Origin: Candidatus Buchananbacteria bacterium CG10_big_fil_rev_8_21_14_0_10_33_19
GTDB taxonomy: Bacteria > Patescibacteriota > Patescibacteriia > 2-01-FULL-39-33
Direction of reading: 5' to 3'
NCBI GenBank assembly: GCA_002773855.1
Contig: PEZY01000005.1
Location: 218,221 to 282,220 of the forward strand
Length of the DNA stretch: 64,000 bases
Shown piece by piece: positions 12,330-25,001 of this stretch. A program made the position numbers and the translations under genes. The first letter of the stretch is position 1, and each line of letters starts with the position of its first letter. The notes under the pieces are model-generated. The model worked only from the letters and a program-made list of their open reading frames with translations. It did no database searches and had not been told where the DNA came from.

Positions 12330-13577
12330 TTAAGCCTTTATTTTTCTAATCAAACTCATATTCACTATATCATATTTTGTACTAACTTCCACATAATATA
12401 ATTCAGCAGTGCCGCCACGAATTTTATCTAAACTTTTACCATTTTCGGTAAAAAATTCTTTAAATTTAATTTTATATACATCTCGTGGTGTCAAAATTTC
12501 AATATTTTCATTAGAGTCCAAGGAATTATGAGCTTTCAATGTTATTGTTTGACGACTACTATTTAATTTTTCTACTCCCACTACTTCCCCCACAAATTCC
12601 CAATCACTCATGGCCTTAGAGGTTTTAAATTCCTGTCGACTATTATTCTCATCACCCAATAAAAAACCAGTGGTGTAACCACGATTATCTATCTTATTTA
12701 ATTCACTTTTTATTTCTTTTAATTTTTTATTTTTTGGATCACTGTTTTCAACAATTAATAAATCCATCGCCTGACGATAAGCTCTGATGACTGTGGCTAA
12801 ATAATAAATACTTTTGGTGCGACCTTCTATTTTAAAAGACACTATCCCCGCTTTAGATAAAGATTCTAAATGATTCATTAAATTTAAATCCTTAGAGTTC
12901 ATAATATAGGTGCCATTTTCATCTTGTTCAACCGGGATCATTTCGCCTGGTCGCTTCGGTTCTTCTAAATAAACATTGTAATTCCAACGACAGGATTGTG
13001 TACACATCCCCAAATTAGCACTCCGCTTGTTAAACCAAGCTGACAGATAGCAGCGCCCAGAATAACTCATACACATAGACCCATGCACAAATATTTCCAA
13101 TTCTACCTTAGGTACTTTTTTATGAATCTCAACAATATCTACTAGTGATGTTTCTCGCCCCAGAATTACTCGCTCCACGCCTTGATCTTGCCAAAATTTA
13201 ACAGCTTCATAATTTAAAGTATTCATTTGTGTCGATAAATGAACTGGAATTTCCGGGATAATTCTTTTGACTACAGCCAAAACTCCTGGGTCAGCCAAAA
13301 TAATAGCATCAGGTTTAAATTCTTTTATTTTTTTTAAATAATTTGGCAACAATTTAAAATGCCGGTTATGAGCAAATATATTAATCGTAATATATACTTT
13401 TTTACCAAGTTGATGAGCATAATCGATACCAATTTTAATATCTTTTAAATCAAAATCAGTTTTCGCTCTAAGTGAATAGGCTGGTAAACCAATATAAACG
13501 GCATCGGCGCCATAGGCGAAAGCAATTTTTAATTTCTTTAAACTGCCGGCTGGTGCTAATAATTCAATTCTTTTCAT
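12330..13577 (-). CDS. Peptidase U32 family protein (collagenase-like / RlhA-YhbU type)
   Basis: MKRIELLAPAGS...ADAVYIG...E..VHGSMCMSYSGRCYLS, the characteristic U32 Cys motif. Confidence 0.85.
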   Translation of the reverse strand: MKRIELLAPAGSLKKLKIAFAYGADAVYIGLPAYSLRAKTDFDLKDIKIGIDYAHQLGKKVYITINIFAHNRHFKLLPNYLKKIKEFKPDAIILADPGVLAVVKRIIPEIPVHLSTQMNTLNYEAVKFWQDQGVERVILGRETSLVDIVEIHKKVPKVELEIFVHGSMCMSYSGRCYLSAWFNKRSANLGMCTQSCRWNYNVYLEEPKRPGEMIPVEQDENGTYIMNSKDLNLMNHLESLSKAGIVSFKIEGRTKSIYYLATVIRAYRQAMDLLIVENSDPKNKKLKEIKSELNKIDNRGYTTGFLLGDENNSRQEFKTSKAMSDWEFVGEVVGVEKLNSSRQTITLKAHNSLDSNENIEILTPRDVYKIKFKEFFTENGKSLDKIRGGTAELYYVEVSTKYDIVNMSLIRKIKA

Positions 13578-13694: not shown

Positions 13695-14558
13695 TTACCT
13701 ATACAGTTGATGTGCCAAAATATAATTAAAAATATGTTCATCAAGTTCTGGCATCATTATATCTTGGTGTCTTAACCACTCTCGAACATTAGTCGAAGCA
13801 GTATCCGGCACATCACTTTCTTCGGTCAGAAAAATATGCGGTGGTCTAAGGTACCAATTAACAGATTCATTTCTTTTTACGCCAATTCTTGGCACTACCA
13901 CAAAGCGCATCATTCTTTCTAGTTCTTCATAACCTACCCAAGTGGGAAAATCATTAGCATTATCCATACCAATAATAATACTAAAATCATATTGATCTTT
14001 GGCCATCTGTTGATCTAAAAGTGTTTTAACAAAATGATAAGTTTGTCCAGCTAATTGATTTTTTATTTCAAAATCAAACACCTTAATACGACCATCGACT
14101 CTAGCTGCAATTTCGCACATCCGCAAACGGTGTTCTGGATCAATCATCTGCTTACCATTCATATGACGATAACAAGGCATTAGCCAAACTTCATCAAAAG
14201 TTTTGCTGGTATTTAAAACAAACTGAGCCAACTTGATATGACCAATTGTTGGCGGATCAAAAGCTCCGCCTAGTATAGCTACCTTTAACTTACGGCCCAA
14301 CGTTTTATACTGCTCTTCACGCCTTTGAATTTTAACCAGAGTAGCTCTAACATTTTTTTCATAATCCCAACCACATTCGTTACACAGCTGAATAGCAGAG
14401 GCTAGTAGATCTCCAACTTCTTCCTGAAGATTAGCAACACCAGTCATTCGATGAAGTTCTATAGCTTCATCTAAAATATCATTCAATCTCTGTTTTAATG
14501 GTGTTCTACCAAATGTACTTTCAAAAATATCTTTTACTTGTTTTTGTAATTTGTTCAT
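13695..14558 (-). CDS. nadD: Fusion protein: N-terminal MazG-like NTP pyrophosphohydrolase domain plus nicotinate/nicotinamide-nucleotide adenylyltransferase (NadD)
   Basis: aa 1-90: EEVGDLLASAIQLCNECGWDYE (MazG/HisE-like helical NTP-PPase). aa 95-287: VAILGGAFDPPTIGH ... IIIGMDNANDFPTW (NadD (H/T)xGH and downstream motifs). Confidence 0.75.
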   Translation of the reverse strand: MNKLQKQVKDIFESTFGRTPLKQRLNDILDEAIELHRMTGVANLQEEVGDLLASAIQLCNECGWDYEKNVRATLVKIQRREEQYKTLGRKLKVAILGGAFDPPTIGHIKLAQFVLNTSKTFDEVWLMPCYRHMNGKQMIDPEHRLRMCEIAARVDGRIKVFDFEIKNQLAGQTYHFVKTLLDQQMAKDQYDFSIIIGMDNANDFPTWVGYEELERMMRFVVVPRIGVKRNESVNWYLRPPHIFLTEESDVPDTASTNVREWLRHQDIMMPELDEHIFNYILAHQLYR

Positions 14559-14690: not shown

Positions 14691-17600
14691 TTAAATTTTC
14701 TGTATCGCTAATTTAACTTCTTCACCATTTAGATTAAAACTCTTACCATGATCATCCTGATTAATTAATTTAGAGGTTAAAGTAGAATTCTTTAGTTCGG
14801 TTGAAAGTTTTTCACCAGTTAACACTTGTTTCATTATTTCGCTATCACTAGTCCACAAAACATTTATCCGATCACCAATAGTTAAGCCATCTGTCTTTCT
14901 TAAGCTATTAATAGTTCTAATTAATTCTCGAAGTAAGCCTTCTAATTTTAATTCATCAGTTAATTCTAAATCTAATTCTACTTTTATTTCTGCGCCTTTT
15001 TCAAACTCGACAGTTTTCACATTTACTTCATCAGCGATTAGTTCAGATAGTTCGACTGGCAAATCATAACCAATGACTTTTAATTTAGCTAGCGGTTGTC
15101 TAATCTTTACTCCTTTTTCTGCTCGCATAGCCAAGCCCATTTCCACAATTCGTCTCACACTCTCCATTTGATCAATTATTTTATCATCAATGTTTCCAGC
15201 TTGTGGCCATTTGGCTAAATGAACTGATTCTAATTCTCCACCCACCCCACGGTAAACAGACTCAGCTAAAAACGGGACAAACGGTGCCATTACCTTGGAT
15301 ATTTCAATTAAGACAAAATTAAAAGTAGCAATCGCTTGATTCTTATCTTCGGTATCACCAGATTTAAAACGATCTCGACTGCGTCTTAACCACCAAGTTG
15401 AAAATTCATCAATAAAATCCTGAATTGGTCGCACCGCTTTAGCCAATTGATAATTATCCATCTCTTTGGAGACAGCTACTATTAATTCATTTAACTTCGA
15501 TAACAGCCACTTATCCAAAATATTTTTAGATTGATTATTTGGTTTAATGTTTTTATCTTCATATAATTGATAAAACTTTAAAACATTATTAGTTAACATC
15601 ACCACTTTTTGGAAAGCTTCTTTAACTCCCACTTCCGAAAAATTCAAATTTTCGGATGTCATCACTGGTGATGATAATAAATAAAACCGCAAAGCGTCAG
15701 CTCCATACTTATCCATTATCAAATCTGGTTCTGGATAATTCTTTAGTCGTTTACTCATCTTATTGCCATCCTCAGCTAGTACGATACCATTAGCAATAAC
15801 ATTTAAAAAGGCTGGCTTATCAAACAAAGCCGTGGCTAAAATCATTAAAGTATAAAACCAACCTCTGGTTTGATCGACACCTTCAGCAATAAAATCAGCT
15901 GGAAAAGTATCTTGGAATTTATCTTTATTTTCAAACGGATAATGCAGTTGAGCATATGGCATCGAACCAGATTCAAACCAACAATCCAACACTTCTGGCA
16001 CTCGTTTCATTTCACCAGTACACTTTTCACATTTAAATCTGATAGTATCAACAACATCCTTATGAATATCTACTGTTCTATTTTTTAACTGGGTAATTTC
16101 GGTATTATCTGGCATATCATGATCAAAAACATTTTCCTGTTTAGTACCAGATAACTTAGCCGCCAAAACTCTAATATTATCACCATGTGAGACTAATAAA
16201 ACATTTTTATCTGGGTACTGATTTCTAATATCTTTGACAAGATCCAGCATTCTATTTTCTATATCCAAAACGCTTTCACCACCGCCAGGCAAAGATTTAG
16301 TATAAGTCTTACGCCAATCTGCTAATGCTTTTGCAGCATCCTCATTGGCATCAGACTGATCTTGTAATTCACCAGGATTGACTTCATTCAATCTTTTATC
16401 AAAAATTAACCTAAGCCCTAGGCCATCAGCAATTATTTTAGCTGTTTCTCTGGCTCGCAAAACATCCGAACTAACAATTAAATCAATGTTTAAATCTTTT
16501 ACATTTTTAATCGCTACTTCAGCTTGAGTTTTACCTTTTTCGGTTAAGGGATATTTATTTTCATCATCACTAAAAACATTTAAAACATTTTTTTCAGACT
16601 CGGCATGACGAATAGCATAAATATTGGTACTAAAAATTTTTGATTTGTCTAATTCTTCTAGTGAACCAACTACTTTAATATCATTACAATCATTACAACG
16701 CCAAACTGGTAATGGAGCACCCCAAAATCTAGATCTGGAAATCGCCCAATCCCGGGCGTCCTCTAGCCATTTACCAAAACGACCATTTTTCAAATGATTG
16801 GGAATCCAATTAACTTGTTGATTATTTTTAATTAAATCTTTTTTAATTTCAGTTACCTTCACAAACCAAGAAGAAGTGGCGTAGTTAAGTAACGGTGTAT
16901 CACAACGCCAACAATGTGGATAGCTATGTTCATATTTTTCTTTAGCAAATAACAAGCCTTTTTCGGCTAAATATTTAATAATTACCACATCCGTTTTTTG
17001 AGTATCTTCTTTGGGCTTGACCTCTAGGCCAGCAAAAGCCTCACCAGCTTCTTTTTTGATATGACCAGTTTCATCAACATGTTGAATCATTGGCAAATTC
17101 TTTTCGTTACCCAAAGCCATATCTTCTTCACCAAAAGCTGGCGCGATATGCACTACTCCCACACCATCAGTCGTCGACACAAAATCAGCCGACACAATAA
17201 TGTATAAGTTCTCCCTATAGTCTATAGCCACGTCTTTATAACAATCAAAAAGTGGTTGATATTTTTTACCAACTAAATCATGGCCTTTTAAATTTTCTAC
17301 TATCTCATAACTTTTGTCAGCAAAAACTTTCTCCAGTAAATCTTTAGCTAAAATATAATTTACATCTTCACTTTTTACTTTTACATATTCAATATCCTCT
17401 CCCACTGCCAAAGCTACATTACCAATTAAAGTCCAAGGAGTAGTGGTCCAAGCTAGAACATAAGTCCCTGGTTCATCTACTAATTCAAATTTAGCCGTCA
17501 CTGCTAAATCCTTAACATCTTTATAACCCTGAGTTACTTCAAAATTAGACAAAGTAGTTTCACAACGTGGGCAAATATGCATAGATTTATAGCCTTCATA

Positions 17601-18110
17601 AATCAAATCCTTGTCCCACAATTCTTTAAACACCCACCAAATACTTTCCATATACCATGGCTCCATAGTCCGATAATCATGTTCCATGTCTACCCATCGG
17701 CCCATTCGAGGAATTGTTTTTTTCCAAATATCAGCGTAACGCAAAACACTTAAACGACAACTTTCATTAAATTTATCAATACCAATATCTTCAATATCCT
17801 TACGACTAGTTAAATTTAATTCTTGCTCTATCATATTTTCAACTGGCAAACCATGACAATCCCAACCCCAACGGCGTTCAACATAATGACCATTCATAGT
17901 TTGATACCTTGGTACCACATCTTTCATAATACTAGCCACCAAATGACCATAATGAGGAGTACCAGTAGCAAACGGTGGGCCATCATAAAAACTAAAAACC
18001 TTACCATTTTTAGTAGCCTCTAAACTTTTGTGAAATATATTATTATCTTCCCAAAATTTTTGGATTTCTTCTTCCTTTATAACTAAAGGATTCTTTTTTT
18101 GATCACTCAT
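14691..18110 (-). CDS. ileS: Isoleucyl-tRNA synthetase (type 2, eukaryote-like) carrying an inserted histidine-phosphatase domain
   Basis: PPFATGTPHYGH, GWDCHGLP and the KMSKR (KMSKS-type) motif. C-terminal ...VLDCWFESG...EGVDQTRGWF. Start set at the internal ATG (MSDQKK). A phosphoglycerate-mutase-like domain (RHAES ... LVSHGDNIR) lies in-frame between the CxxC zinc knuckle and the DxHxP region. Confidence 0.95.
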   Translation of the reverse strand: MSDQKKNPLVIKEEEIQKFWEDNNIFHKSLEATKNGKVFSFYDGPPFATGTPHYGHLVASIMKDVVPRYQTMNGHYVERRWGWDCHGLPVENMIEQELNLTSRKDIEDIGIDKFNESCRLSVLRYADIWKKTIPRMGRWVDMEHDYRTMEPWYMESIWWVFKELWDKDLIYEGYKSMHICPRCETTLSNFEVTQGYKDVKDLAVTAKFELVDEPGTYVLAWTTTPWTLIGNVALAVGEDIEYVKVKSEDVNYILAKDLLEKVFADKSYEIVENLKGHDLVGKKYQPLFDCYKDVAIDYRENLYIIVSADFVSTTDGVGVVHIAPAFGEEDMALGNEKNLPMIQHVDETGHIKKEAGEAFAGLEVKPKEDTQKTDVVIIKYLAEKGLLFAKEKYEHSYPHCWRCDTPLLNYATSSWFVKVTEIKKDLIKNNQQVNWIPNHLKNGRFGKWLEDARDWAISRSRFWGAPLPVWRCNDCNDIKVVGSLEELDKSKIFSTNIYAIRHAESEKNVLNVFSDDENKYPLTEKGKTQAEVAIKNVKDLNIDLIVSSDVLRARETAKIIADGLGLRLIFDKRLNEVNPGELQDQSDANEDAAKALADWRKTYTKSLPGGGESVLDIENRMLDLVKDIRNQYPDKNVLLVSHGDNIRVLAAKLSGTKQENVFDHDMPDNTEITQLKNRTVDIHKDVVDTIRFKCEKCTGEMKRVPEVLDCWFESGSMPYAQLHYPFENKDKFQDTFPADFIAEGVDQTRGWFYTLMILATALFDKPAFLNVIANGIVLAEDGNKMSKRLKNYPEPDLIMDKYGADALRFYLLSSPVMTSENLNFSEVGVKEAFQKVVMLTNNVLKFYQLYEDKNIKPNNQSKNILDKWLLSKLNELIVAVSKEMDNYQLAKAVRPIQDFIDEFSTWWLRRSRDRFKSGDTEDKNQAIATFNFVLIEISKVMAPFVPFLAESVYRGVGGELESVHLAKWPQAGNIDDKIIDQMESVRRIVEMGLAMRAEKGVKIRQPLAKLKVIGYDLPVELSELIADEVNVKTVEFEKGAEIKVELDLELTDELKLEGLLRELIRTINSLRKTDGLTIGDRINVLWTSDSEIMKQVLTGEKLSTELKNSTLTSKLINQDDHGKSFNLNGEEVKLAIQKI

Positions 18111-18152
18111 ATTTTTGATATTTATTAATCCATTATGACATTTTTTGGGCAA

Positions 18153-18334
18153 ATAAAAAACCCAAATATGGTTTCAAGAGCCTTCACAGGCGGTACCATC
18201 TTGAGTTTATCTTAATTTATTAGCGATCACGGGCTAAACCGATTGGTTCTACTAACTAAAAAGCGTTCTGCCAATGACTCTTCTGGTGATTGCCAGAATA
18301 ATATCGTCTTTTATATTGTTAAAATTGTATCTAT
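18153..18334 (-). promoter_or_regulatory. Candidate T-box leader upstream of ileS
   Basis: Minus-strand AGATGGTACCGCC resembles the T-box consensus AGGGTGGNACCGCG, with UGGU matching the tRNA-Ile discriminator A. An AUCA element sits in an upstream hairpin. A weak hairpin plus T-run precedes the start. Confidence 0.35.
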
Positions 18335-18363
18335 AATATACTAGCTGTAATCAATTTTGTCAA
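18335..18363 (-). promoter_or_regulatory. Sigma70-like promoter for ileS/leader (TTGACA-17-TATATT)
   Basis: Minus strand reads TTGACAaaattgattacagctagTATATT. Confidence 0.45.
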
Positions 18364-18466: not shown

Positions 18467-19117
18467 TTAATCTAAAATAGCAACACCTAAAGCTAGACCA
18501 CCAATAAACGGCCAGAAACTATTGTTATTAACTTGGGATGCTTCAACCATCTGACGCTGACAATCTTTTAGCTTTTCCGATATTTCATCAACAGGACGAG
18601 TCATAGCCACTAAGTGAGATCTTAGCTCTTCATTATTATGAAACCACAAAGTAATACTATTAACTTCATACATCGTTAGACCACCGTACCGCTCACCAAA
18701 GCCCGTGAAACAAATTTCCGCAATCGGCGATGGAGTATCATCCAGTTGAGAGTCAGACTCACTCAAAACATTGATGCGAATTTTACTAATGGGCACTGTC
18801 TCATTTCTATAGCCATCAAAAAGCAATATCGCTTTAGAACTTTCAGCGCCAACAATGTATATGGCCTTAATTAGACCACAACGATGTTTAAATTCACGCC
18901 AAACCTTTTTTGAATCTGGCACTTCGTCTTTACTAATTTCAACATATTCCGTTTTAACTTTCGTATGAGCTGGAATTAATCTAAAGCCTAACAACTTGAA
19001 CTCTGGAACCTCAATTTGCACTTTTCTGGCAACAGGCCAATTAGTAACAGATATTTGATTAGACCTGGGATTACACCATTTGGAATTAGTTAATTCTTGT
19101 CTTTCCTTATTGCTCAT
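18467..19117 (-). CDS. Hypothetical protein with a C-terminal transmembrane helix
   Basis: 216-aa ORF with C-terminal FWPFIGGLALGVAIL. No recognised motifs. Confidence 0.4.
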   Translation of the reverse strand: MSNKERQELTNSKWCNPRSNQISVTNWPVARKVQIEVPEFKLLGFRLIPAHTKVKTEYVEISKDEVPDSKKVWREFKHRCGLIKAIYIVGAESSKAILLFDGYRNETVPISKIRINVLSESDSQLDDTPSPIAEICFTGFGERYGGLTMYEVNSITLWFHNNEELRSHLVAMTRPVDEISEKLKDCQRQMVEASQVNNNSFWPFIGGLALGVAILD

Positions 19118-19919: not shown

Positions 19920-21626
19920 TTACATTTGGTCTAGTGGTTCAATGCCCAACAAATCCAAACCATTAATCAAAACTTTCCTAATTGAATCCACCAATATTAG
20001 TCTAGCTTCTTTGATTTCCTTAGTTGAGTTAATAATTGGTGATTTTTGATAGAAAGCCGAAAATAATTTGGCTAAATCAAATAAATATTTAGCCACCTGA
20101 CTAGGATCATAATTTTTGGCCGACTCGGCTACTACTTCAGGAAAACTAGCTAATTGTAACAAGATTTCTTTTTCTAAATCACTATTTAATTTTGAATAGT
20201 CAATAGTAGAAAAAGTGGTGACTTTAGCTTTTTTGAGAACGCTACTAATACGGCTGCAAGTGTACTGAATATAAGGTCCACTAAACCCGTCAAAACTCAG
20301 AGCTTCGTCAATATCAAAAGTAATAACACTATTATTGCCAACCTTTAACATATTAAATTTAATAGCTGATAAAGCAATTTTTCTAGCTACTTCATTAATC
20401 TTTTTTTCTGGCCAATCTTCGTGTCTATTTTTTGTCTCAATAGTGGCGCGATCGACAACTTGATTATAAAAATCTTCAAATAAAACTACATTACCTTTAC
20501 GCGAAGCCATGGCTCCATCTTTTAAAGTTACAAACTCATACGGAATATGAATCATTTTTTTATCAAAACCAATCACCTCCATAGTTTTAAAAAATTGCTG
20601 CAAGTAAAAACTCTGGCGACTATCTACCACCACAATACTCTCGTCAATTTTAAACTTTTCAAATTTTAATTTAGCCAAAGCCAATTCTTTGGTCGAATAA
20701 AGTGAAGAACCGTCAGATTTTAAAAGTAAAAATTGTTTTAAATGATATTTTTCTAAATCGATTATTACTGCTCCTTCTGATTTTTGAGCCACACCCTGCT
20801 CTAATAATTCGGCCACCATTTTTTTACCAGGCTTTTCTACTTCACTTTCATAAAAAAAATGATCAAACTTAACACCCAATATTTTATAAATACGATCAAA
20901 ATCATCCAAGCTCCATTTTCTAGTTTTTTTCCATAAAGCTGTCCATTTTTTATCACCAGTTTCTAATTTTTGCAGAACCTCATCAACTTCTTTTTTATAT
21001 TCTAGATTAGATTCTATTTTTTGTGAGCCATCAGTATAAACCTGACCCAAGAATTTACCTTTATTTTCTGGTAACTCCTTAGCTGAATAAAATTTATCGT
21101 AAGCCCACAAACATTTCGCTACATGAGCACCAATATCACCAATATAATTAACAGCGGTTACCTTATGCCCAGAAAATCTTAAAATGTTAACCAAACTATT
21201 ACCAAGTATAGCGTTCCTCAAGTGGCCAACATGAAATTCTTTGTGAGTATTAGGCTGAGAAAACTCTAACATAATTTTCTTTGGACTATTTTTGGCGCCA
21301 CCGTAAATATCTTTGTTTTTTTGGATCTCATTATTTACCGACTTGCCCAAAATTTCTGGATCAATAAAAAAATTTAGATAAGCGCCAATGTTTTTTATCT
21401 CCTTAATCACTCCGCCAGAATTTATTTTTTCGGCCAGCTCTTGGGCAATTTGATTTGGTGATTGTCTAGTTATTTTTGATAAATAAAAACACGGTACTGC
21501 TAAATCACCCATCATAGAATCTGGTGGCACTACTACTTCTAATTTATGTAAATCAAAATCTACCTCAATAGCCTGGGCTATGAGATCTATAATCTGCTTT
21601 TTAATTTTTAAAATTATGTAATCCAT
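19920..21626 (-). CDS. argS: Arginyl-tRNA synthetase
   Basis: EFSQPNTHKEFHVGHLRN (HIGH-type) and a C-terminal DALS anticodon-binding region. 568 aa. Confidence 0.9.
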   Translation of the reverse strand: MDYIILKIKKQIIDLIAQAIEVDFDLHKLEVVVPPDSMMGDLAVPCFYLSKITRQSPNQIAQELAEKINSGGVIKEIKNIGAYLNFFIDPEILGKSVNNEIQKNKDIYGGAKNSPKKIMLEFSQPNTHKEFHVGHLRNAILGNSLVNILRFSGHKVTAVNYIGDIGAHVAKCLWAYDKFYSAKELPENKGKFLGQVYTDGSQKIESNLEYKKEVDEVLQKLETGDKKWTALWKKTRKWSLDDFDRIYKILGVKFDHFFYESEVEKPGKKMVAELLEQGVAQKSEGAVIIDLEKYHLKQFLLLKSDGSSLYSTKELALAKLKFEKFKIDESIVVVDSRQSFYLQQFFKTMEVIGFDKKMIHIPYEFVTLKDGAMASRKGNVVLFEDFYNQVVDRATIETKNRHEDWPEKKINEVARKIALSAIKFNMLKVGNNSVITFDIDEALSFDGFSGPYIQYTCSRISSVLKKAKVTTFSTIDYSKLNSDLEKEILLQLASFPEVVAESAKNYDPSQVAKYLFDLAKLFSAFYQKSPIINSTKEIKEARLILVDSIRKVLINGLDLLGIEPLDQM

Positions 21627-22499: not shown

Positions 22500-24248
22500 A
22501 TGAATAATCAACAATTAGAAAAAATACGCCATTCTACTTCTCATATTATGGCCTACGCAGTGAGAGAAATTTTTGGTAATGATGTTAAATTTGCTATTGG
22601 TCCGGTAATTGACGAGGGCTTTTACTATGATTTTGATTTAGGTGAAATCACTATATCAACTGATGATTTCAAAAAAATAGAAAATAAAATGACCGAGCTT
22701 ATAAAACAAAAATTACCTTTTATTAGAACCGAAGTTAGTATTGAAGAAGCCCTTAAAAAAACTAACGACCAACCCTACAAACAAGAATTAATTAATGATT
22801 TATCTACTAAGGGTGAAACAACAGTTAGTTTTTACAAGGTTGGAGAATTTGAAGATTTATGTCGCGGACCACATATTGAAAGTACTAAAGAACTTGGTAA
22901 TTTTAAATTATTAAAATTAGCTGGCGCTTATTGGCGTGGTGATGAAAAAAATAAAATGTTACAACGAATTTATGGTACCGCTTTTGCCACCAAAGATGAA
23001 TTACAAAAATATCTAATCGCTCTGAAAGAAGCTGAGCAAAGAGACCATAGAAAAATCGGCAAAGAACAAGAATTATTTTTCATCGATGATACTATTGGTA
23101 AAGGACTGGTCATGTGGCAACCAAATGGCACTATTATCAGAAATGAAATAGAAAAATTAGCTATCGAAATGGAAGATAAGGGTGATTATAAAAGAGTGGT
23201 AACTCCCCACCTAGCGAAAGAAGAACTTTATTTAACCTCTGGTCATTTACCTTACTACAAAGATGGTATGTACCCAGCTATGGTTATGGATGATGGTACT
23301 TATTATCTACGAGCGATGAACTGTCCTCATCATCATATGATCTACAAACACCAAATGCGAAGCTATCGTGATTTACCTCTTCGTATTGCCGAATACGGCA
23401 CAGTTTATCGCAACGAATTATCAGGCACATTGGCTGGCCTACTTCGAGTACGTGGCCTAGCAATGAATGATGCTCATATTTATTGTCGAAAAGACCAAAT
23501 TAAAGATGAATTCAAAGCAGTTTTAGATTTAACTTTAAAATATTTTGAAATTTTTGGTTTAGAAAATTATTATTTTAGATTGTCTAAGTGGAGCAAAGAT
23601 CATACCGATAAATATATTAACGAACCAGCCAATTGGGAATACAGTCAAAACGTAATCAAAGAAATTTTAGACGAAGCTAAAGTAGACTATGTTGAAGCAG
23701 ACGATGAAGCAGCTTTCTACGGACCAAAAATTGATATTCAATTTAAATCTATCATTGGTCGTGAAGAAACTATGGCCACTATTCAACTAGATTTTTTAGC
23801 CAAAGAAAGATTTAAACTTCACTACACTGATACTGACGGCAAAGATAATAATGAAGTCTTTGTTATTCATCGAGCGCCACTATCCACTCATGAGAGATTT
23901 ACAGCTTTCCTAATTGAATATTATGGTGGTATTTGGCCAACTTGGTTATCACCTGTTCAAGTTCGCGTTATACCAATTTCTGAAAAATTTATTGACTACG
24001 CTAAAGCAGTTAAAAGTAAAATTAAAGATTCTAAAATTAGAGTTGATATTGACGACAGTAATGAATCACTAGGCAAACGTGTCAGAAATGCCGAAAAATC
24101 CAAGATTCCTTATATTTTAGTGGTGGGCGAAAAAGAGCAAACAGATCAAACTGTAGCTGTCAGAAAAAGAACTGACGGTGATCAGGGTTCTAAAAAAATC
24201 GAAGACTTCATTCTAGATATCAAAACAGAAATTGAAAATCGAAAATAA
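22500..24248 (+). CDS. thrS: Threonyl-tRNA synthetase
   Basis: RDHRKIGKEQELFF, the class II motifs and an anticodon-binding C-terminus. 582 aa (short N-terminus). Confidence 0.95.
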   Translation: MNNQQLEKIRHSTSHIMAYAVREIFGNDVKFAIGPVIDEGFYYDFDLGEITISTDDFKKIENKMTELIKQKLPFIRTEVSIEEALKKTNDQPYKQELINDLSTKGETTVSFYKVGEFEDLCRGPHIESTKELGNFKLLKLAGAYWRGDEKNKMLQRIYGTAFATKDELQKYLIALKEAEQRDHRKIGKEQELFFIDDTIGKGLVMWQPNGTIIRNEIEKLAIEMEDKGDYKRVVTPHLAKEELYLTSGHLPYYKDGMYPAMVMDDGTYYLRAMNCPHHHMIYKHQMRSYRDLPLRIAEYGTVYRNELSGTLAGLLRVRGLAMNDAHIYCRKDQIKDEFKAVLDLTLKYFEIFGLENYYFRLSKWSKDHTDKYINEPANWEYSQNVIKEILDEAKVDYVEADDEAAFYGPKIDIQFKSIIGREETMATIQLDFLAKERFKLHYTDTDGKDNNEVFVIHRAPLSTHERFTAFLIEYYGGIWPTWLSPVQVRVIPISEKFIDYAKAVKSKIKDSKIRVDIDDSNESLGKRVRNAEKSKIPYILVVGEKEQTDQTVAVRKRTDGDQGSKKIEDFILDIKTEIENRK

Positions 24249-24362: not shown

Positions 24363-25001
24363 ATGCCCAAGCCCAAAAACAATCAACTACCAATTAAAGA
24401 GAATCACGAAAAATTTATTAATCGACTGAGATTAAAAGTCACGGATCGAGAATTAGTGCTAATTGATTGGGCCTATATTAATGCTAAGTACGGCCATCGC
24501 AATCAACAGCGAGATGACGGCAGTAGATACTTTGATCACCTGAGATCAACCGCCTTAATTTTAATTGATGAATTAAAAATTTTTGATAGCGAAATGATTA
24601 TTTCGGCTCTAATGCATGATATGCTAGAAGACAGTTTTTTATTTGATACCAAAAGAATTAAAATTCTTTTTGGCAAAAAAGTAGCCAAAATGGTTAATCA
24701 ACTGAGTATGCCAGAAATGAATATTAAAATATTCAAATCCAAAAAAGACCGTCTTGACCATTACCATGCAACAATTAAAAAAAGTCCTCTAAAAGTAATT
24801 ATTATAAAACTTTGTGACCGCTTACATAACCTACGTACAATGAATAATTGTCCGCCAGAAAAAAGAAAACGCAAAACCAAAGAAACATTAGATCATTATC
24901 TCCCACTGATTAGATTACTAAACAATGACTACCCAGAAATAGCTACAATATTTTATCATGAATATGAAAAATCATTAGATGAATTAACAAAAACCACCTA
25001 A
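24363..25001 (+). CDS. Stand-alone HD-domain (p)ppGpp hydrolase-like protein (small alarmone hydrolase / SpoT-type HD)
   Basis: HRNQQRDDGSRYFDHLRSTALIL...LMHDMLED...KLCDRLHNLRTM follows the RelA/SpoT HD-domain pattern. No synthetase domain. Confidence 0.65.
   Translation: MPKPKNNQLPIKENHEKFINRLRLKVTDRELVLIDWAYINAKYGHRNQQRDDGSRYFDHLRSTALILIDELKIFDSEMIISALMHDMLEDSFLFDTKRIKILFGKKVAKMVNQLSMPEMNIKIFKSKKDRLDHYHATIKKSPLKVIIIKLCDRLHNLRTMNNCPPEKRKRKTKETLDHYLPLIRLLNNDYPEIATIFYHEYEKSLDELTKTT

What the first reader, a model, noticed from the sequence alone, without database searches (positions are those of the whole stretch)
16050..16670. Isoleucyl-tRNA synthetase with an in-frame histidine-phosphatase (PGM-like) domain insertion
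The 1153-aa IleRS ORF is continuous. Between the CxxC zinc knuckle (PLPVWRCNDCN) and the DxHxP / VLDCWFESG region it carries about 200 extra residues. These have the unmistakable signature of the histidine-phosphatase superfamily branch 1: IRHAESEKN (RHG motif), a middle LRARETA, GGESV and LLVSHGDNIR (the second catalytic His).

A canonical IleRS has only a short linker here. A phosphatase embedded in an aaRS catalytic core is not a described feature of IleRS, to my knowledge. It could act on a phosphorylated nucleotide such as Ap4A or (p)ppGpp, on a phospho-intermediate, or be regulatory.

This is the only copy of ileS in the window, and it has a promoter and a possible T-box leader, so it is probably the functional housekeeping enzyme.
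Basis: partly seen in the sequence, partly recalled or inferred. Interest (0 to 1): 0.85.

Follow-up and report, generated by a model that had tools for sequence, protein, structure and literature searches.

The report
Phosphatase domain nested inside isoleucyl-tRNA synthetase
This bacterium's isoleucine-charging enzyme carries a complete, apparently active phosphatase nested in one of its surface loops; the pairing is widespread in the tiny-celled Patescibacteria, its purpose is unknown, and I found no paper describing it.

Summary
The gene at 14691..18110 (- strand) encodes a complete type-2 isoleucyl-tRNA synthetase (IleRS). A 193-residue segment (16071..16649) replaces a ~9-residue linker at the tip of the zinc-binding CP3 subdomain. 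That segment is a full histidine-phosphatase (HP) domain (Pfam His_Phos_1, E 6e-40).

It is not an assembly artefact. 152 full-length relatives share the architecture, on contigs up to 957 kb, and 162 clusters at 50% identity match at E<=1e-30. Named sources are Patescibacteria.

New findings:
- The same HP subfamily also sits at two other recurrent IleRS loops (plus one single-protein case), sometimes in tandem.
- In 80 metagenomic loci, 21 HPs are nested in ileS and 59 are free genes; 48 of the 59 lie just upstream of ileS, usually as argS-HP-ileS.
- No end-to-end fusion was seen.
- Some of these IleRS also carry NUDIX or GNAT domains.

The substrate is unknown. My best reading is an active small-molecule phosphatase selected to sit on or beside IleRS. 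The T-box claim is not supported. New variant of a known kind; interest about 0.62.

The parts
14691..18110 (-). ileS gene: type-2 isoleucyl-tRNA synthetase with a nested phosphatase domain. Likely start is the ATG at 18110; the mechanical ORF runs from a TTG at 18152.
   Evidence: TIGR00392 scores 907.6 bits (cutoff 621.4). Homologues start at M15. AF2 model pLDDT 91.7, pTM 0.82. Foldseek top hit is IleRS2 8C8V, TM 0.84.
16650..18110 (-). N-terminal IleRS part: first half of the Rossmann fold, CP core, editing domain (CP1), CP2, and the first half of the CP3 zinc knuckle.
   Evidence: Pfam tRNA-synt_1 stretch aa 30-520. ileS profile positions 6-498. Invariant WTTTPWT editing motif in alignments A1/A2.
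17943..17954 (-). HIGH signature (HYGH)
   Evidence: Translation checked. Conserved in alignments A1/A2.
16686..16697 (-). First CxxC pair of the CP3 zinc knuckle (CNDC, aa 486-489)
   Evidence: At least 90% conserved in relatives. The CP3 zinc motif is described for T. thermophilus IleRS in PMC7191050.
16071..16649 (-). Inserted segment D502-V694 (193 aa): two short linkers plus the histidine-phosphatase domain. It replaces a ~9-residue linker found in insert-less relatives.
   Evidence: Alignment with insert-less relatives P0135, P0138, P0147, P0165, P0194. Translation checked.
16083..16622 (-). Histidine phosphatase domain (Pfam His_Phos_1, aa 511-690)
16605..16610 (-). Catalytic R515-H516 (RHG-type motif, here RHA; H516 is the predicted phospho-acceptor)
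   Evidence: 243 of 243 embedded domains keep both residues. They align with R10/H11 of E. coli GpmA.
16455..16457 (-). R566, second phosphate-binding arginine (equivalent to GpmA R62)
   Evidence: 242 of 243 conserved.
16383..16385 (-). E590, predicted proton donor (equivalent to GpmA E89)
   Evidence: 230 E and 10 D among 243 domains.
16185..16187 (-). H656, second catalytic histidine (equivalent to GpmA H184)
   Evidence: 243 of 243 conserved.
16020..16031 (-). Second CxxC pair of the CP3 zinc knuckle (CEKC, aa 708-711)
   Evidence: At least 90% conserved.
14691..16070 (-). C-terminal IleRS part: second half of the Rossmann fold, KMSKR loop, anticodon-binding domain, type-2 C-terminal domain (DUF5915)
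   Evidence: Pfam Anticodon_1 E 3e-31 and DUF5915 E 1.2e-18.
15747..15761 (-). KMSKR signature loop
   Evidence: K784, M785, S786, K787 (M15 numbering) are invariant or nearly so.
18335..18363 (-). Promoter-like site TTGACA-17 nt-TATATT upstream of ileS
   Evidence: 11 of 12 consensus matches, the best in the region. This is a consensus match only.
18111..18334 (-). About 220-nt leader of uncertain nature. Contains UGGUACCGC, which resembles the T-box core. Not shown to be a T-box.
   Evidence: Rfam T-box 18.6 bits against gathering 93, found but not. Not conserved in relatives. Fold z-score -1.7.
19920..21626 (-). argS, the syntenic upstream partner. In other lineages the free phosphatase gene lies between argS and ileS.
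   Evidence: Pfam tRNA-synt_1d and DALR_1. Synteny.

Best explanation
**What it is (shown).** This is the organism's ordinary type-2 isoleucyl-tRNA synthetase. A complete PhoE/CobC/PspA-like histidine phosphatase is nested at the tip of its zinc-binding CP3 subdomain. It belongs to a large Patescibacteria family. The same phosphatase subfamily is placed in one of three ways:
- nested in IleRS, mostly at this site;
- nested at two other recurrent IleRS surface loops (one further site is seen in a single protein), sometimes in tandem;
- encoded as a separate ~200-aa gene wedged 2-4 nt from ileS, usually as argS-HP-ileS.

**How it most likely works (inferred).**
- Aminoacylation and editing are done by the unchanged IleRS core.
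- The nested domain is an independently folded, catalytically active phosphomonoesterase. H516 would take the phosphate, with R515, R566 and H656 binding it and E590 as proton donor.
- Its capped active site suits a small substrate. The closest relatives suggest a nucleoside-, ribityl- or sugar-acid-phosphate type of molecule rather than a protein or tRNA.
- What selection keeps is physical or expression coupling of this phosphatase to IleRS.

**Status of each step.** The architecture, the conservation and the genomic linkage are shown. The phosphatase activity, the small-molecule substrate and the benefit of proximity are inferred. The identity of the substrate is unknown.
For: **Architecture.**
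- Pfam and NCBIfam show a clean insertion.
- The whole-protein AF2 model is confident (pLDDT 91.7, pTM 0.82) and matches IleRS2.
- The insertion site is the CP3 zinc knuckle.

**Breadth.**
- 79 of the 120 closest full-length relatives carry the insert, and 152 full-length carriers are in hand.
- 162 clusters at 50% identity match at E<=1e-30.
- Carriers come from assemblies labelled Buchananbacteria, Wolfebacteria, Paceibacterota, Gracilibacteria, Peribacteria and Saccharibacteria.

**Active enzyme.**
- R515 and H516 are kept in 243 of 243 domains, R566 in 242, H656 in 243.
- E590 is E or D in 240.
- N522 is kept in 228.

**Phosphatase, not mutase.**
- The mutase residues R90, Y92, K100, R116, R117 and N186 are not conserved.
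- Position 90 is I/V/L, as in PhoE.

**Small-molecule type.**

**Coupling to IleRS.**
- The HP occurs at sites A, B and C, plus one case at about aa 434. All carriers score above the ileS cutoff.
- Free HPs score as high on the embedded-HP profile as held-out embedded domains.
- In an HP-seeded scan of 80 metagenomic loci, 21 HPs are nested and 59 are free.
- Of the 59 free genes, 44 have ileS within 100 nt downstream, 4 more within 1.5 kb, and 1 has a convergent ileS. 35 have argS within 100 nt upstream.
- No locus has both a free and a nested HP.
- There are 0 end-to-end fusions against 248 nested.
Against: - Close relatives with the same argS-RR-ileS synteny lack the insert (L007, L008; P0135-P0138). 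Insert-less and insert-bearing IleRS interleave in a crude core tree. The domain is therefore dispensable for IleRS function.
- The HP evolves faster than the core: mean identity to the window is 34% against 55%.
- The linkage could partly reflect inherited synteny rather than a functional link.
- 7 of 56 assessable free HPs are not next to ileS.
- No model coordinates were available. I could not measure whether the phosphatase pocket faces the synthetic site, the editing site or the tRNA path.
- No curated subfamily model reaches its cutoff, so the substrate cannot be read from homology.
Confidence: 0.55

Rival explanations
1. Hitch-hiker. The phosphatase is an unrelated metabolic enzyme that lay next to ileS in an ancestral Patescibacteria operon. 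Local rearrangements repeatedly captured it into structurally permissive IleRS loops. It gains only co-expression with an essential gene and has no functional interplay with IleRS.
For: - CP3 is the most variable IleRS subdomain, with a different topology in three solved enzymes.
- One insert-less relative has even lost the zinc ligands.
- The insert is lost in close relatives.
- Other unrelated enzyme domains (NUDIX, GNAT) are also found inside these IleRS. This suggests a generally permissive scaffold.
- argS-ileS synteny exists with or without the HP.
Against: - About 90% of this HP subfamily's genes are inside or beside ileS, across lineages whose IleRS cores are only 40-55% identical. Neutral synteny rarely survives that long.
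- There are at least three recurrent nested sites but no simple end-to-end fusion, although the free gene ends 2-3 nt before ileS.
- Free and nested forms are mutually exclusive within loci.
Confidence: 0.28
2. Macromolecule-directed phosphatase. The domain removes a phosphate from IleRS itself or from a partner protein (as SixA, PGAM5 or Sts do). Alternatively it heals a 3'-phosphate or cyclic-phosphate end on tRNA(Ile) before charging.
For: - Tethering to the enzyme that binds tRNA(Ile) would make sense for such a role.
- A weak sixA match of 31.9 bits.
- Response-regulator genes lie nearby in the window and in L016.
Against: - The sixA model is far below its cutoff (31.9 against 74.5).
- The response regulator is syntenic whether or not the HP is present (L007, L008).
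- To my knowledge, no histidine-phosphatase family member is known to act on RNA ends.
Confidence: 0.1
3. Glycolytic enzyme. The domain is the cell's cofactor-dependent phosphoglycerate mutase, as the reader's 'PGM-like' label and the best NCBIfam hit (dPGM_arch) might suggest.
For: - The best NCBIfam subfamily hit is dPGM_arch, at 116 bits.
- The best PDB sequence hit is deposited under the name 'phosphoglycerate mutase' (9MMH).
Against: - dPGM_arch is far below its cutoff (116 against 225), and TIGR01258 scores 46 against 81.7.
- The residues that bind the second phospho or carboxylate group in true mutases (R90, Y92, K100, R116, R117, N186) are absent or variable in 243 domains.
- 9MMH is in fact a riboflavin-pathway phosphatase (PMC12051542, listed).
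Confidence: 0.03
4. Artefact. An assembly chimera or a decaying pseudogene joins two genes.
For: None found.
Against: - The frame is continuous.
- There is no composition break across 16000-16700.
- 152 independent full-length homologues come from many samples and contigs up to 957 kb.
- The catalytic residues of both enzymes are invariant.
- The AF2 model is confident.
Confidence: 0.01

Closest known systems
Type-2 (eukaryote-like, mupirocin-resistant type) bacterial IleRS, e.g. Priestia megaterium IleRS2 (PDB 8C8V) and Thermus thermophilus IleRS (1ILE)
   Same: - Same overall fold (TM 0.84 to 8C8V and 0.92 to 1ILE, normalised to the target).
- HIGH and KMSKR motifs, editing domain, two zinc knuckles including the CP3 one, and the DUF5915-type C-terminal domain.
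   Different: Those enzymes have a short CP3 tip. Here a 193-residue segment with a whole phosphatase domain is nested there.
NCBIfam NF040702 'isoleucine--tRNA ligase, N-acetyltransferase domain-containing' (ileS_w_GNAT)
   Same: A curated example of a bacterial IleRS carrying an extra catalytic domain. Some phosphatase-bearing relatives here also carry GNAT domains (P0319, P0378).
   Different: The window protein scores only 291 bits against a cutoff of 1999. Its extra domain is a histidine phosphatase, not a GNAT. I found no curated model or paper for the phosphatase-bearing form.
Small broad-specificity histidine phosphatases: PhoE (1H2E), PspA phosphoserine phosphatase (4IJ5), glucosyl-3-phosphoglycerate phosphatase (6S2Q), Aquifex riboflavin-pathway phosphatase (9MMH), CobC (6E4B)
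   Same: - Same catalytic residues.
- Hydrophobic residue at the position of mutase R90, as in PhoE.
   Different: - Those are free-standing enzymes.
- Identity is only 21-32%.
- No curated equivalog cutoff is reached, so the substrate cannot be transferred.
Other fusions of a branch-1 histidine phosphatase to nucleotide or nucleic-acid enzymes: mycobacterial MutT1 (NUDIX + HP; PDB 9CXX, 3FJY), bifunctional RNase H/acid phosphatase (NF005567), TFIIIC tau55
   Same: An HP domain is joined to a protein of nucleotide or RNA metabolism. The HP plus NUDIX pairing recurs here (P0163, P0294; ileS-NUDIX in L023).
   Different: - Those are end-to-end fusions, whereas this one is nested inside another enzyme's subdomain.

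Membership tests
Isoleucyl-tRNA synthetase, type 2 (TIGR00392 / IleRS2) | Family model score above the curated cutoff | tested here: met
   907.6 bits against 621.4. valS and leuS models are below their cutoffs.
Isoleucyl-tRNA synthetase, type 2 (TIGR00392 / IleRS2) | Class I signatures HIGH and KMSKS | tested here: met
   HYGH at aa 67-70 and KMSKR at aa 798-802. Conserved in 129 relatives.
Isoleucyl-tRNA synthetase, type 2 (TIGR00392 / IleRS2) | CP1 editing domain with the threonine-rich motif | tested here: met
   WTTTPWT is present. W221, T222, T223 and W226 (M15 numbering) are invariant.
Isoleucyl-tRNA synthetase, type 2 (TIGR00392 / IleRS2) | Type-2 C-terminal domain instead of the type-1 zinc-binding domain, and overall fold | tested here: met
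   PF19302 DUF5915, E 1.2e-18. Foldseek ranks IleRS2 8C8V first (E 2.5e-92); type-1 enzymes score lower.
Isoleucyl-tRNA synthetase, type 2 (TIGR00392 / IleRS2) | Charges tRNA(Ile) with isoleucine | not testable with these tools
   Needs an enzyme assay.
Histidine phosphatase superfamily, branch 1 (PF00300) | Family model score above the gathering threshold, near full length | tested here: met
   137.3 bits against 21.7, profile positions 1-180 of 194.
Histidine phosphatase superfamily, branch 1 (PF00300) | Catalytic set: RHG-motif Arg and His, second Arg, acidic proton donor, second His | tested here: met
   R515, H516, R566, E590 and H656 align with GpmA R10, H11, R62, E89 and H184. They are invariant or nearly so in 243 domains.
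Histidine phosphatase superfamily, branch 1 (PF00300) | Alpha/beta fold of the family | tested here: met
   [not shown]
Histidine phosphatase superfamily, branch 1 (PF00300) | Phosphatase activity | not testable with these tools
   Needs an enzyme assay.
Cofactor-dependent phosphoglycerate mutase (dPGM) | Curated equivalog or subfamily cutoffs | tested here: not met
   dPGM_arch 116 against 225. TIGR01258 46 against 81.7. All other gpm models are far below cutoff.
Cofactor-dependent phosphoglycerate mutase (dPGM) | Residues binding the substrate's second phospho or carboxylate group (E. coli GpmA R90, Y92, K100, R116, R117, N186) | tested here: not met
   Window residues: V, P, gap, gap, gap, D. 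Not conserved across 243 domains. The role of these residues is taken from my knowledge of the dPGM literature.
CobC alpha-ribazole phosphatase / PspA phosphoserine phosphatase / SixA phosphohistidine phosphatase | Curated equivalog cutoffs | tested here: not met
   TIGR03162 100.7 against 162.9. NF045917 70 against 350. TIGR00249 31.9 against 74.5.
T-box leader (Rfam RF00230) | Covariance-model score at or above gathering; conserved leader in relatives | tested here: not met
   - 18.6 bits against 93, in one call only.
- The upstream region is not alignable in L001, L002, L006 and L007.
- The UGGUACCGC core also occurs inside thrS.
Intein or other self-splicing insert | Cys/Ser/Thr at the first insert residue and at +1 after it; His-Asn at the insert end | tested here: not met
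   The insert starts with D502, ends ...RTV694, and is followed by D695. The insert is a complete enzyme domain with its own conserved active site.

The most novel reading that the evidence does not exclude
In Patescibacteria, IleRS may serve as a docking hub for small 'housecleaning' or immunity enzymes: histidine phosphatase, NUDIX and GNAT. These could act at the synthetase on phosphorylated or adenylate-like molecules. Candidates are natural aminoacyl-adenylate-mimic inhibitors of IleRS, dinucleoside polyphosphates made by the synthetase, or alarmone breakdown products. That would give the enzyme a built-in protection or by-product-clearing function not known for any aminoacyl-tRNA synthetase. 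The repeated nesting at several loops, the tight argS-HP-ileS operon and the absence of simple end-to-end fusions would then reflect a requirement for a particular geometry next to the active site.
Probability: 0.12. Interest if true: 0.85.

Novelty: new variant of a known kind. Interest (0 to 1): 0.62.

Why it matters
Aminoacyl-tRNA synthetases are among the most conserved enzymes. Extra catalytic domains are rare in bacterial ones, and a whole enzyme nested inside a synthetase subdomain is unusual.

Here the pairing of one phosphatase subfamily with IleRS is kept across a very diverse bacterial group. It takes three forms: a neighbouring gene, nesting at several loops, and tandem copies. This is the kind of 'Rosetta stone' evidence that normally signals a shared function.

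If the link is functional, it points to an unknown phosphorylated molecule that matters specifically around isoleucine charging in ultra-small, host-dependent bacteria.

It also has a practical side. NCBI's pipeline labels these proteins only 'class I tRNA ligase family protein'. The sole IleRS of many Patescibacteria genomes is therefore easy to miss in metabolic reconstructions.

Tried and rejected
1. **T-box leader.** Rfam at gathering and E-value thresholds gave one weak hit and otherwise none. The leader is not conserved in relatives. The second copy of the core motif lies inside thrS. The fold is not exceptional. Not supported.

2. **Basic charge of free HPs as a sign of docking to acidic IleRS or to tRNA.** Free HPs have median pI 9.7. 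However, argS, ileS and nested HPs in the same loci are equally basic. This is a proteome-wide bias, so the idea is rejected.

3. **General NUDIX adjacency.** A NUDIX-box scan of 28 loci found it near ileS in only a few. It is sporadic, not a rule.

4. **Response-regulator link (SixA-like idea).** The response regulator is syntenic with or without the HP.

5. **Flavin link.** ribF-ileS is a classic operon elsewhere (my own knowledge), and the best PDB hit is a riboflavin-pathway phosphatase. The gene downstream of ileS is NadD-like, not flavin-related. No support.

6. **HP-domain tree to count independent insertions.** The neighbour-joining tree on 182 columns was unresolved, with outgroups nested inside. 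No conclusion beyond similar pairwise identities.

7. **Geometry of the phosphatase pocket relative to the IleRS sites.** Model coordinates are not exposed, and the AlphaFold-database library was unavailable.

8. **Intein.** The junction residues do not fit.

9. **Literature.** Seven searches for any description of the architecture and a text search of a 96,219-sequence IleRS survey preprint found none.
Full report
**1. The observation**

The ORF lies on the minus strand at 14691..18152, 1153 aa from a TTG. Homologues start at the ATG at 18110 (MSDQKK...), which gives 1139 aa. There is no composition break across the region.

Pfam finds four parts:
- tRNA-synt_1, E 5.9e-143, in two stretches;
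- His_Phos_1 at aa 511-690, E 6.4e-40, profile positions 1-180 of 194;
- Anticodon_1;
- DUF5915.

The NCBIfam ileS model scores 907.6 bits against a cutoff of 621.4. It is interrupted exactly between profile positions 498 and about 501. All quoted motifs are present at the stated places.

Compared with close insert-less relatives, the extra segment is D502-V694 (window 16071..16649). It replaces a linker of about nine residues...VGSIEEL-EKLSGEKIS-DLHKD....

**2. Not an artefact, and not rare**

A full-length search returned 120 best relatives. 79 of them (50-83% identical, 1133-1352 aa) have the phosphatase at the same site. They sit on contigs up to 957 kb. Source names include Candidatus Buchananbacteria, Wolfebacteria, Paceibacterota and 'Patescibacteria group'.

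An exhaustive profile search with the insert and its flanks found 162 cluster representatives (50% identity clusters) at E<=1e-30. Almost all match flank-insert-flank at about residue 450-750 of 1100-1250-aa proteins.

Species-representative genomes place the window nearest Ca. Buchananbacteria (74% and 68% identity). They also show the architecture in assemblies labelled Gracilibacteria, Peribacteria and Saccharibacteria. The window itself has one ileS and one phosphatase domain.

**3. The synthetase part is a normal type-2 IleRS**

- HIGH (HYGH), KMSKR, the editing-domain motif WTTTPWT and both zinc knuckles are conserved.
- The AlphaFold model is confident: pLDDT 91.7, pTM 0.82, with the insert at 86-96.
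- Its best structural matches are Priestia megaterium IleRS2 (8C8V, TM 0.84), yeast IleRS with tRNA, and T. thermophilus IleRS.

[quoted passage not shown] CP3 carries a zinc motif in the T. thermophilus enzyme. Its topology differs among the three solved types (PMC7191050).

The phosphatase is therefore nested at the tip of the CP3 zinc knuckle, a peripheral and variable element. It is not in the catalytic core proper.

**4. The nested domain looks like an active, small-molecule phosphatase**

Conservation across 243 embedded domains from 234 proteins:

| Window residue | E. coli GpmA equivalent | Conserved in |
|---|---|---|
| R515 | R10 | 243 |
| H516 | H11 | 243 |
| N522 | N17 | 228 |
| R566 | R62 | 242 |
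| E590 (proton donor) | E89 | 230 E + 10 D |
| H656 | H184 | 243 |

The residues that in true cofactor-dependent mutases hold the second phospho or carboxylate group are absent or variable. These are R90, Y92, K100, R116, R117 and N186. Position 90 is I/V/L, as in the phosphatase PhoE. The role of these residues is from my knowledge of the dPGM literature.

No curated subfamily model reaches its cutoff:

| Model | Score | Cutoff |
|---|---|---|
| dPGM_arch | 116 | 225 |
| CobC | 101 | 163 |
| PspA | 70 | 350 |
| SixA | 32 | 74.5 |

- all four align over about 182 residues;

I infer an active phosphomonoesterase with a capped pocket suited to a small substrate. The domain evolves faster than the core: mean identity to the window is 34% against 55%.

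**5.

*(a) Other insertion sites.* Splitting the window protein into N, HP and C pieces and searching all retrieved proteins showed the phosphatase at other positions:
- site B, after YPFEN, about aa 739-749;
- site C, about aa 866-875, at the start of the anticodon-binding domain;
- once at about aa 434;
- tandem pairs at site A;
- A+C, B+C and A+B combinations.

Seven of these variant-site or long-architecture proteins (sites B, C, A+C and B+C among them) were checked against NCBIfam, and all score above the ileS cutoff.

*(b) Free-standing genes.* Free ~200-aa phosphatases score as high on a profile of embedded domains (196-218 bits) as held-out embedded domains do. Their genes lie 2-4 nt from an insert-less ileS and from argS, in the order argS-HP-ileS. 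One variant is argS-HP-(23S IVP)-ileS-NUDIX.

*(c) An HP-seeded metagenome scan.* It confirmed 448 relatives, and the best 80 loci were kept:

| State of the HP | Loci |
|---|---|
| Nested in ileS | 21 |
| Free | 59 |
| Free, ileS starts <=100 nt downstream on the same strand | 44 |
| Free, ileS within 1.5 kb | 4 |
| Free, convergent ileS 10 nt away | 1 |
| Free, contig ends before a downstream gene could be seen | 3 |
| Free, unrelated neighbours | 7 |
| Free, argS <=100 nt upstream | 35 |

No locus has both a free and a nested copy.

*(d) No end-to-end fusions.* The free gene stops 2-3 nt before ileS, yet I found no N- or C-terminal fusion. There were 228 nested cases among the proteins and 20 in the unbiased scan.

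*(e) More distant free phosphatases* are not linked to ileS.

**6. The insert is dispensable**

- Insert-less IleRS such as P0135-P0138, L007 and L008 are as close to the window in the core as many carriers.
- L007 and L008 share the window's argS-response regulator-ileS synteny.
- One of them (P0138) has even lost the CP3 cysteines.

The phosphatase is therefore an accessory, gained or lost repeatedly. The crude trees do not allow a count.

**7. Mechanism**

*Shown:*
- a normal IleRS2 scaffold;
- a complete phosphatase domain with an intact active site;
- a lineage-wide coupling of this phosphatase subfamily to ileS, by operon or by nesting.

*Inferred:*
- the domain is active;
- it acts on a small phosphomonoester;
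- selection maintains its proximity to, or co-expression with, IleRS.

The β1 strand runs from the N-side tether to the RH motif. By topology, the pocket therefore lies at the end of the domain away from CP3 and is probably solvent-exposed. I could not measure its orientation towards the synthetic site, the editing site or the tRNA, because model coordinates are not exposed.

The substrate is unknown. Candidates are nucleotide-like phosphates, in line with these observations:
- CobC- and riboflavin-phosphatase-like relatives;
- known HP fusions to NUDIX and RNase H;
- the NUDIX domains that co-occur here.

The window also encodes a small RelA/SpoT-type hydrolase. That makes a dedicated ppGpp role less necessary.

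The main rival is a hitch-hiker scenario. It is favoured by the permissive CP3, the losses, and the presence of other inserted enzymes. It is disfavoured by the depth and exclusivity of the linkage and by the lack of end-to-end fusions.

**8. Comparison and novelty**

The scaffold is a member of IleRS2, and the insert is a member of the branch-1 histidine phosphatases. It is not a dPGM, CobC, PspA or SixA by curated cutoffs or by residues.

The nearest described precedent for the architecture is NCBIfam's GNAT-containing IleRS. Other phosphatase fusions (MutT1, RNase H/acid phosphatase, tau55) are end-to-end.

Seven literature searches found no description. A text search of a preprint that annotated 96,219 IleRS sequences found no mention of a phosphatase, Patescibacteria or CPR. 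NCBI's pipeline names these proteins only 'class I tRNA ligase family protein'.

I rate it a new variant of a known kind: a multi-domain synthetase. It comes with an unexpectedly strong and undescribed gene-association signal.

**9. Side claims**

- The promoter-like site TTGACA-17-TATATT at 18363..18335 is a good consensus match.
- The T-box is not supported.

Noticed in passing
Related proteins P0318, P0353, P0323, P0342, P0378 (site B); P0335, P0360 (site C); P0242, P0245 (A+C); P0303, P0316 (B+C); P0291 (A+B); P0300, P0255, P0356, P0286 (tandem at A); P0278 (about aa 434 plus A): The same phosphatase domain occupies at least three other positions in Patescibacteria IleRS, and sometimes occurs twice in one protein. 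In tandem carriers, the first copies cluster together and the second copies cluster together, which suggests an old duplication.
   Followed up: yes
Loci L016-L024 and L029-L108: There is a conserved argS-HP-ileS operon with 2-4 nt gaps, in which the phosphatase is a separate ~200-aa gene and ileS lacks the insert. 48 of 59 free HP genes lie directly upstream of ileS, and 1 more has a convergent ileS 10 nt away.
   Followed up: yes
P0163 aa 305-465, P0294 aa 215-355 (NUDIX); P0319 aa 258-425 and 885-1075, P0378 aa 535-700 (GNAT); P0235 aa 245-435 (no Pfam hit, contains HSLGAS); L023 10426-10962 (NUDIX gene overlapping the ileS stop): Phosphatase-bearing IleRS of this group can also carry NUDIX or GNAT domains, or an unassigned 190-aa insert. 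In one lineage a NUDIX gene overlaps the end of ileS. IleRS seems to be a hot spot for the accretion of small enzymes.
   Followed up: partly
window 13695..14558 (-): The gene directly downstream of ileS fuses a MazG-like nucleotide pyrophosphohydrolase N-terminus to a NadD-like NMN/NaMN adenylyltransferase (TIGR00482 106.7 bits, just under the cutoff of 112.45). The adjacency is not conserved in relatives.
   Followed up: partly
window 24363..25001 (+), next to thrS at 22500..24248 (+): A 212-aa protein matches only the N-terminal HD-hydrolase part of RelA/SpoT proteins (93 bits). It is a possible small alarmone hydrolase.
   Followed up: no
window 18467..19117 (-): A 216-aa ORF between the response regulator and ileS has no Pfam or NCBIfam match. 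In relatives L002, L006 and L007, that position holds a short cysteine-rich (ferredoxin-like CxxCxxC) gene instead.
   Followed up: no
window 18111..18334 (-): A ~220-nt leader lies between a strong promoter-like site and the ileS start. It contains UGGUACCGC and a small hairpin with AUCA in its loop. It resembles T-box elements but fails the Rfam model and is not conserved.
   Followed up: yes
P0138 (insert-less IleRS, 947 aa): This close insert-less relative has lost all four cysteines of the CP3 zinc knuckle (WRS-DDGD ... IE--KDGK). The knuckle itself is therefore dispensable in this group.
   Followed up: no
window 12330..13577 (-); L001, L006, L007, L010: A U32-family peptidase gene is repeatedly found a few kb downstream of ileS in the window and in several relatives.
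   Followed up: no
L023 6732-7343, L024 5934-6545: A '23S rRNA intervening sequence protein' (PF05635) gene sits between the free phosphatase gene and ileS in one lineage.
   Followed up: no
window 18111..18152 (-): The mechanical ORF starts at a TTG 14 codons upstream of the ATG where all homologues begin.
   Followed up: yes
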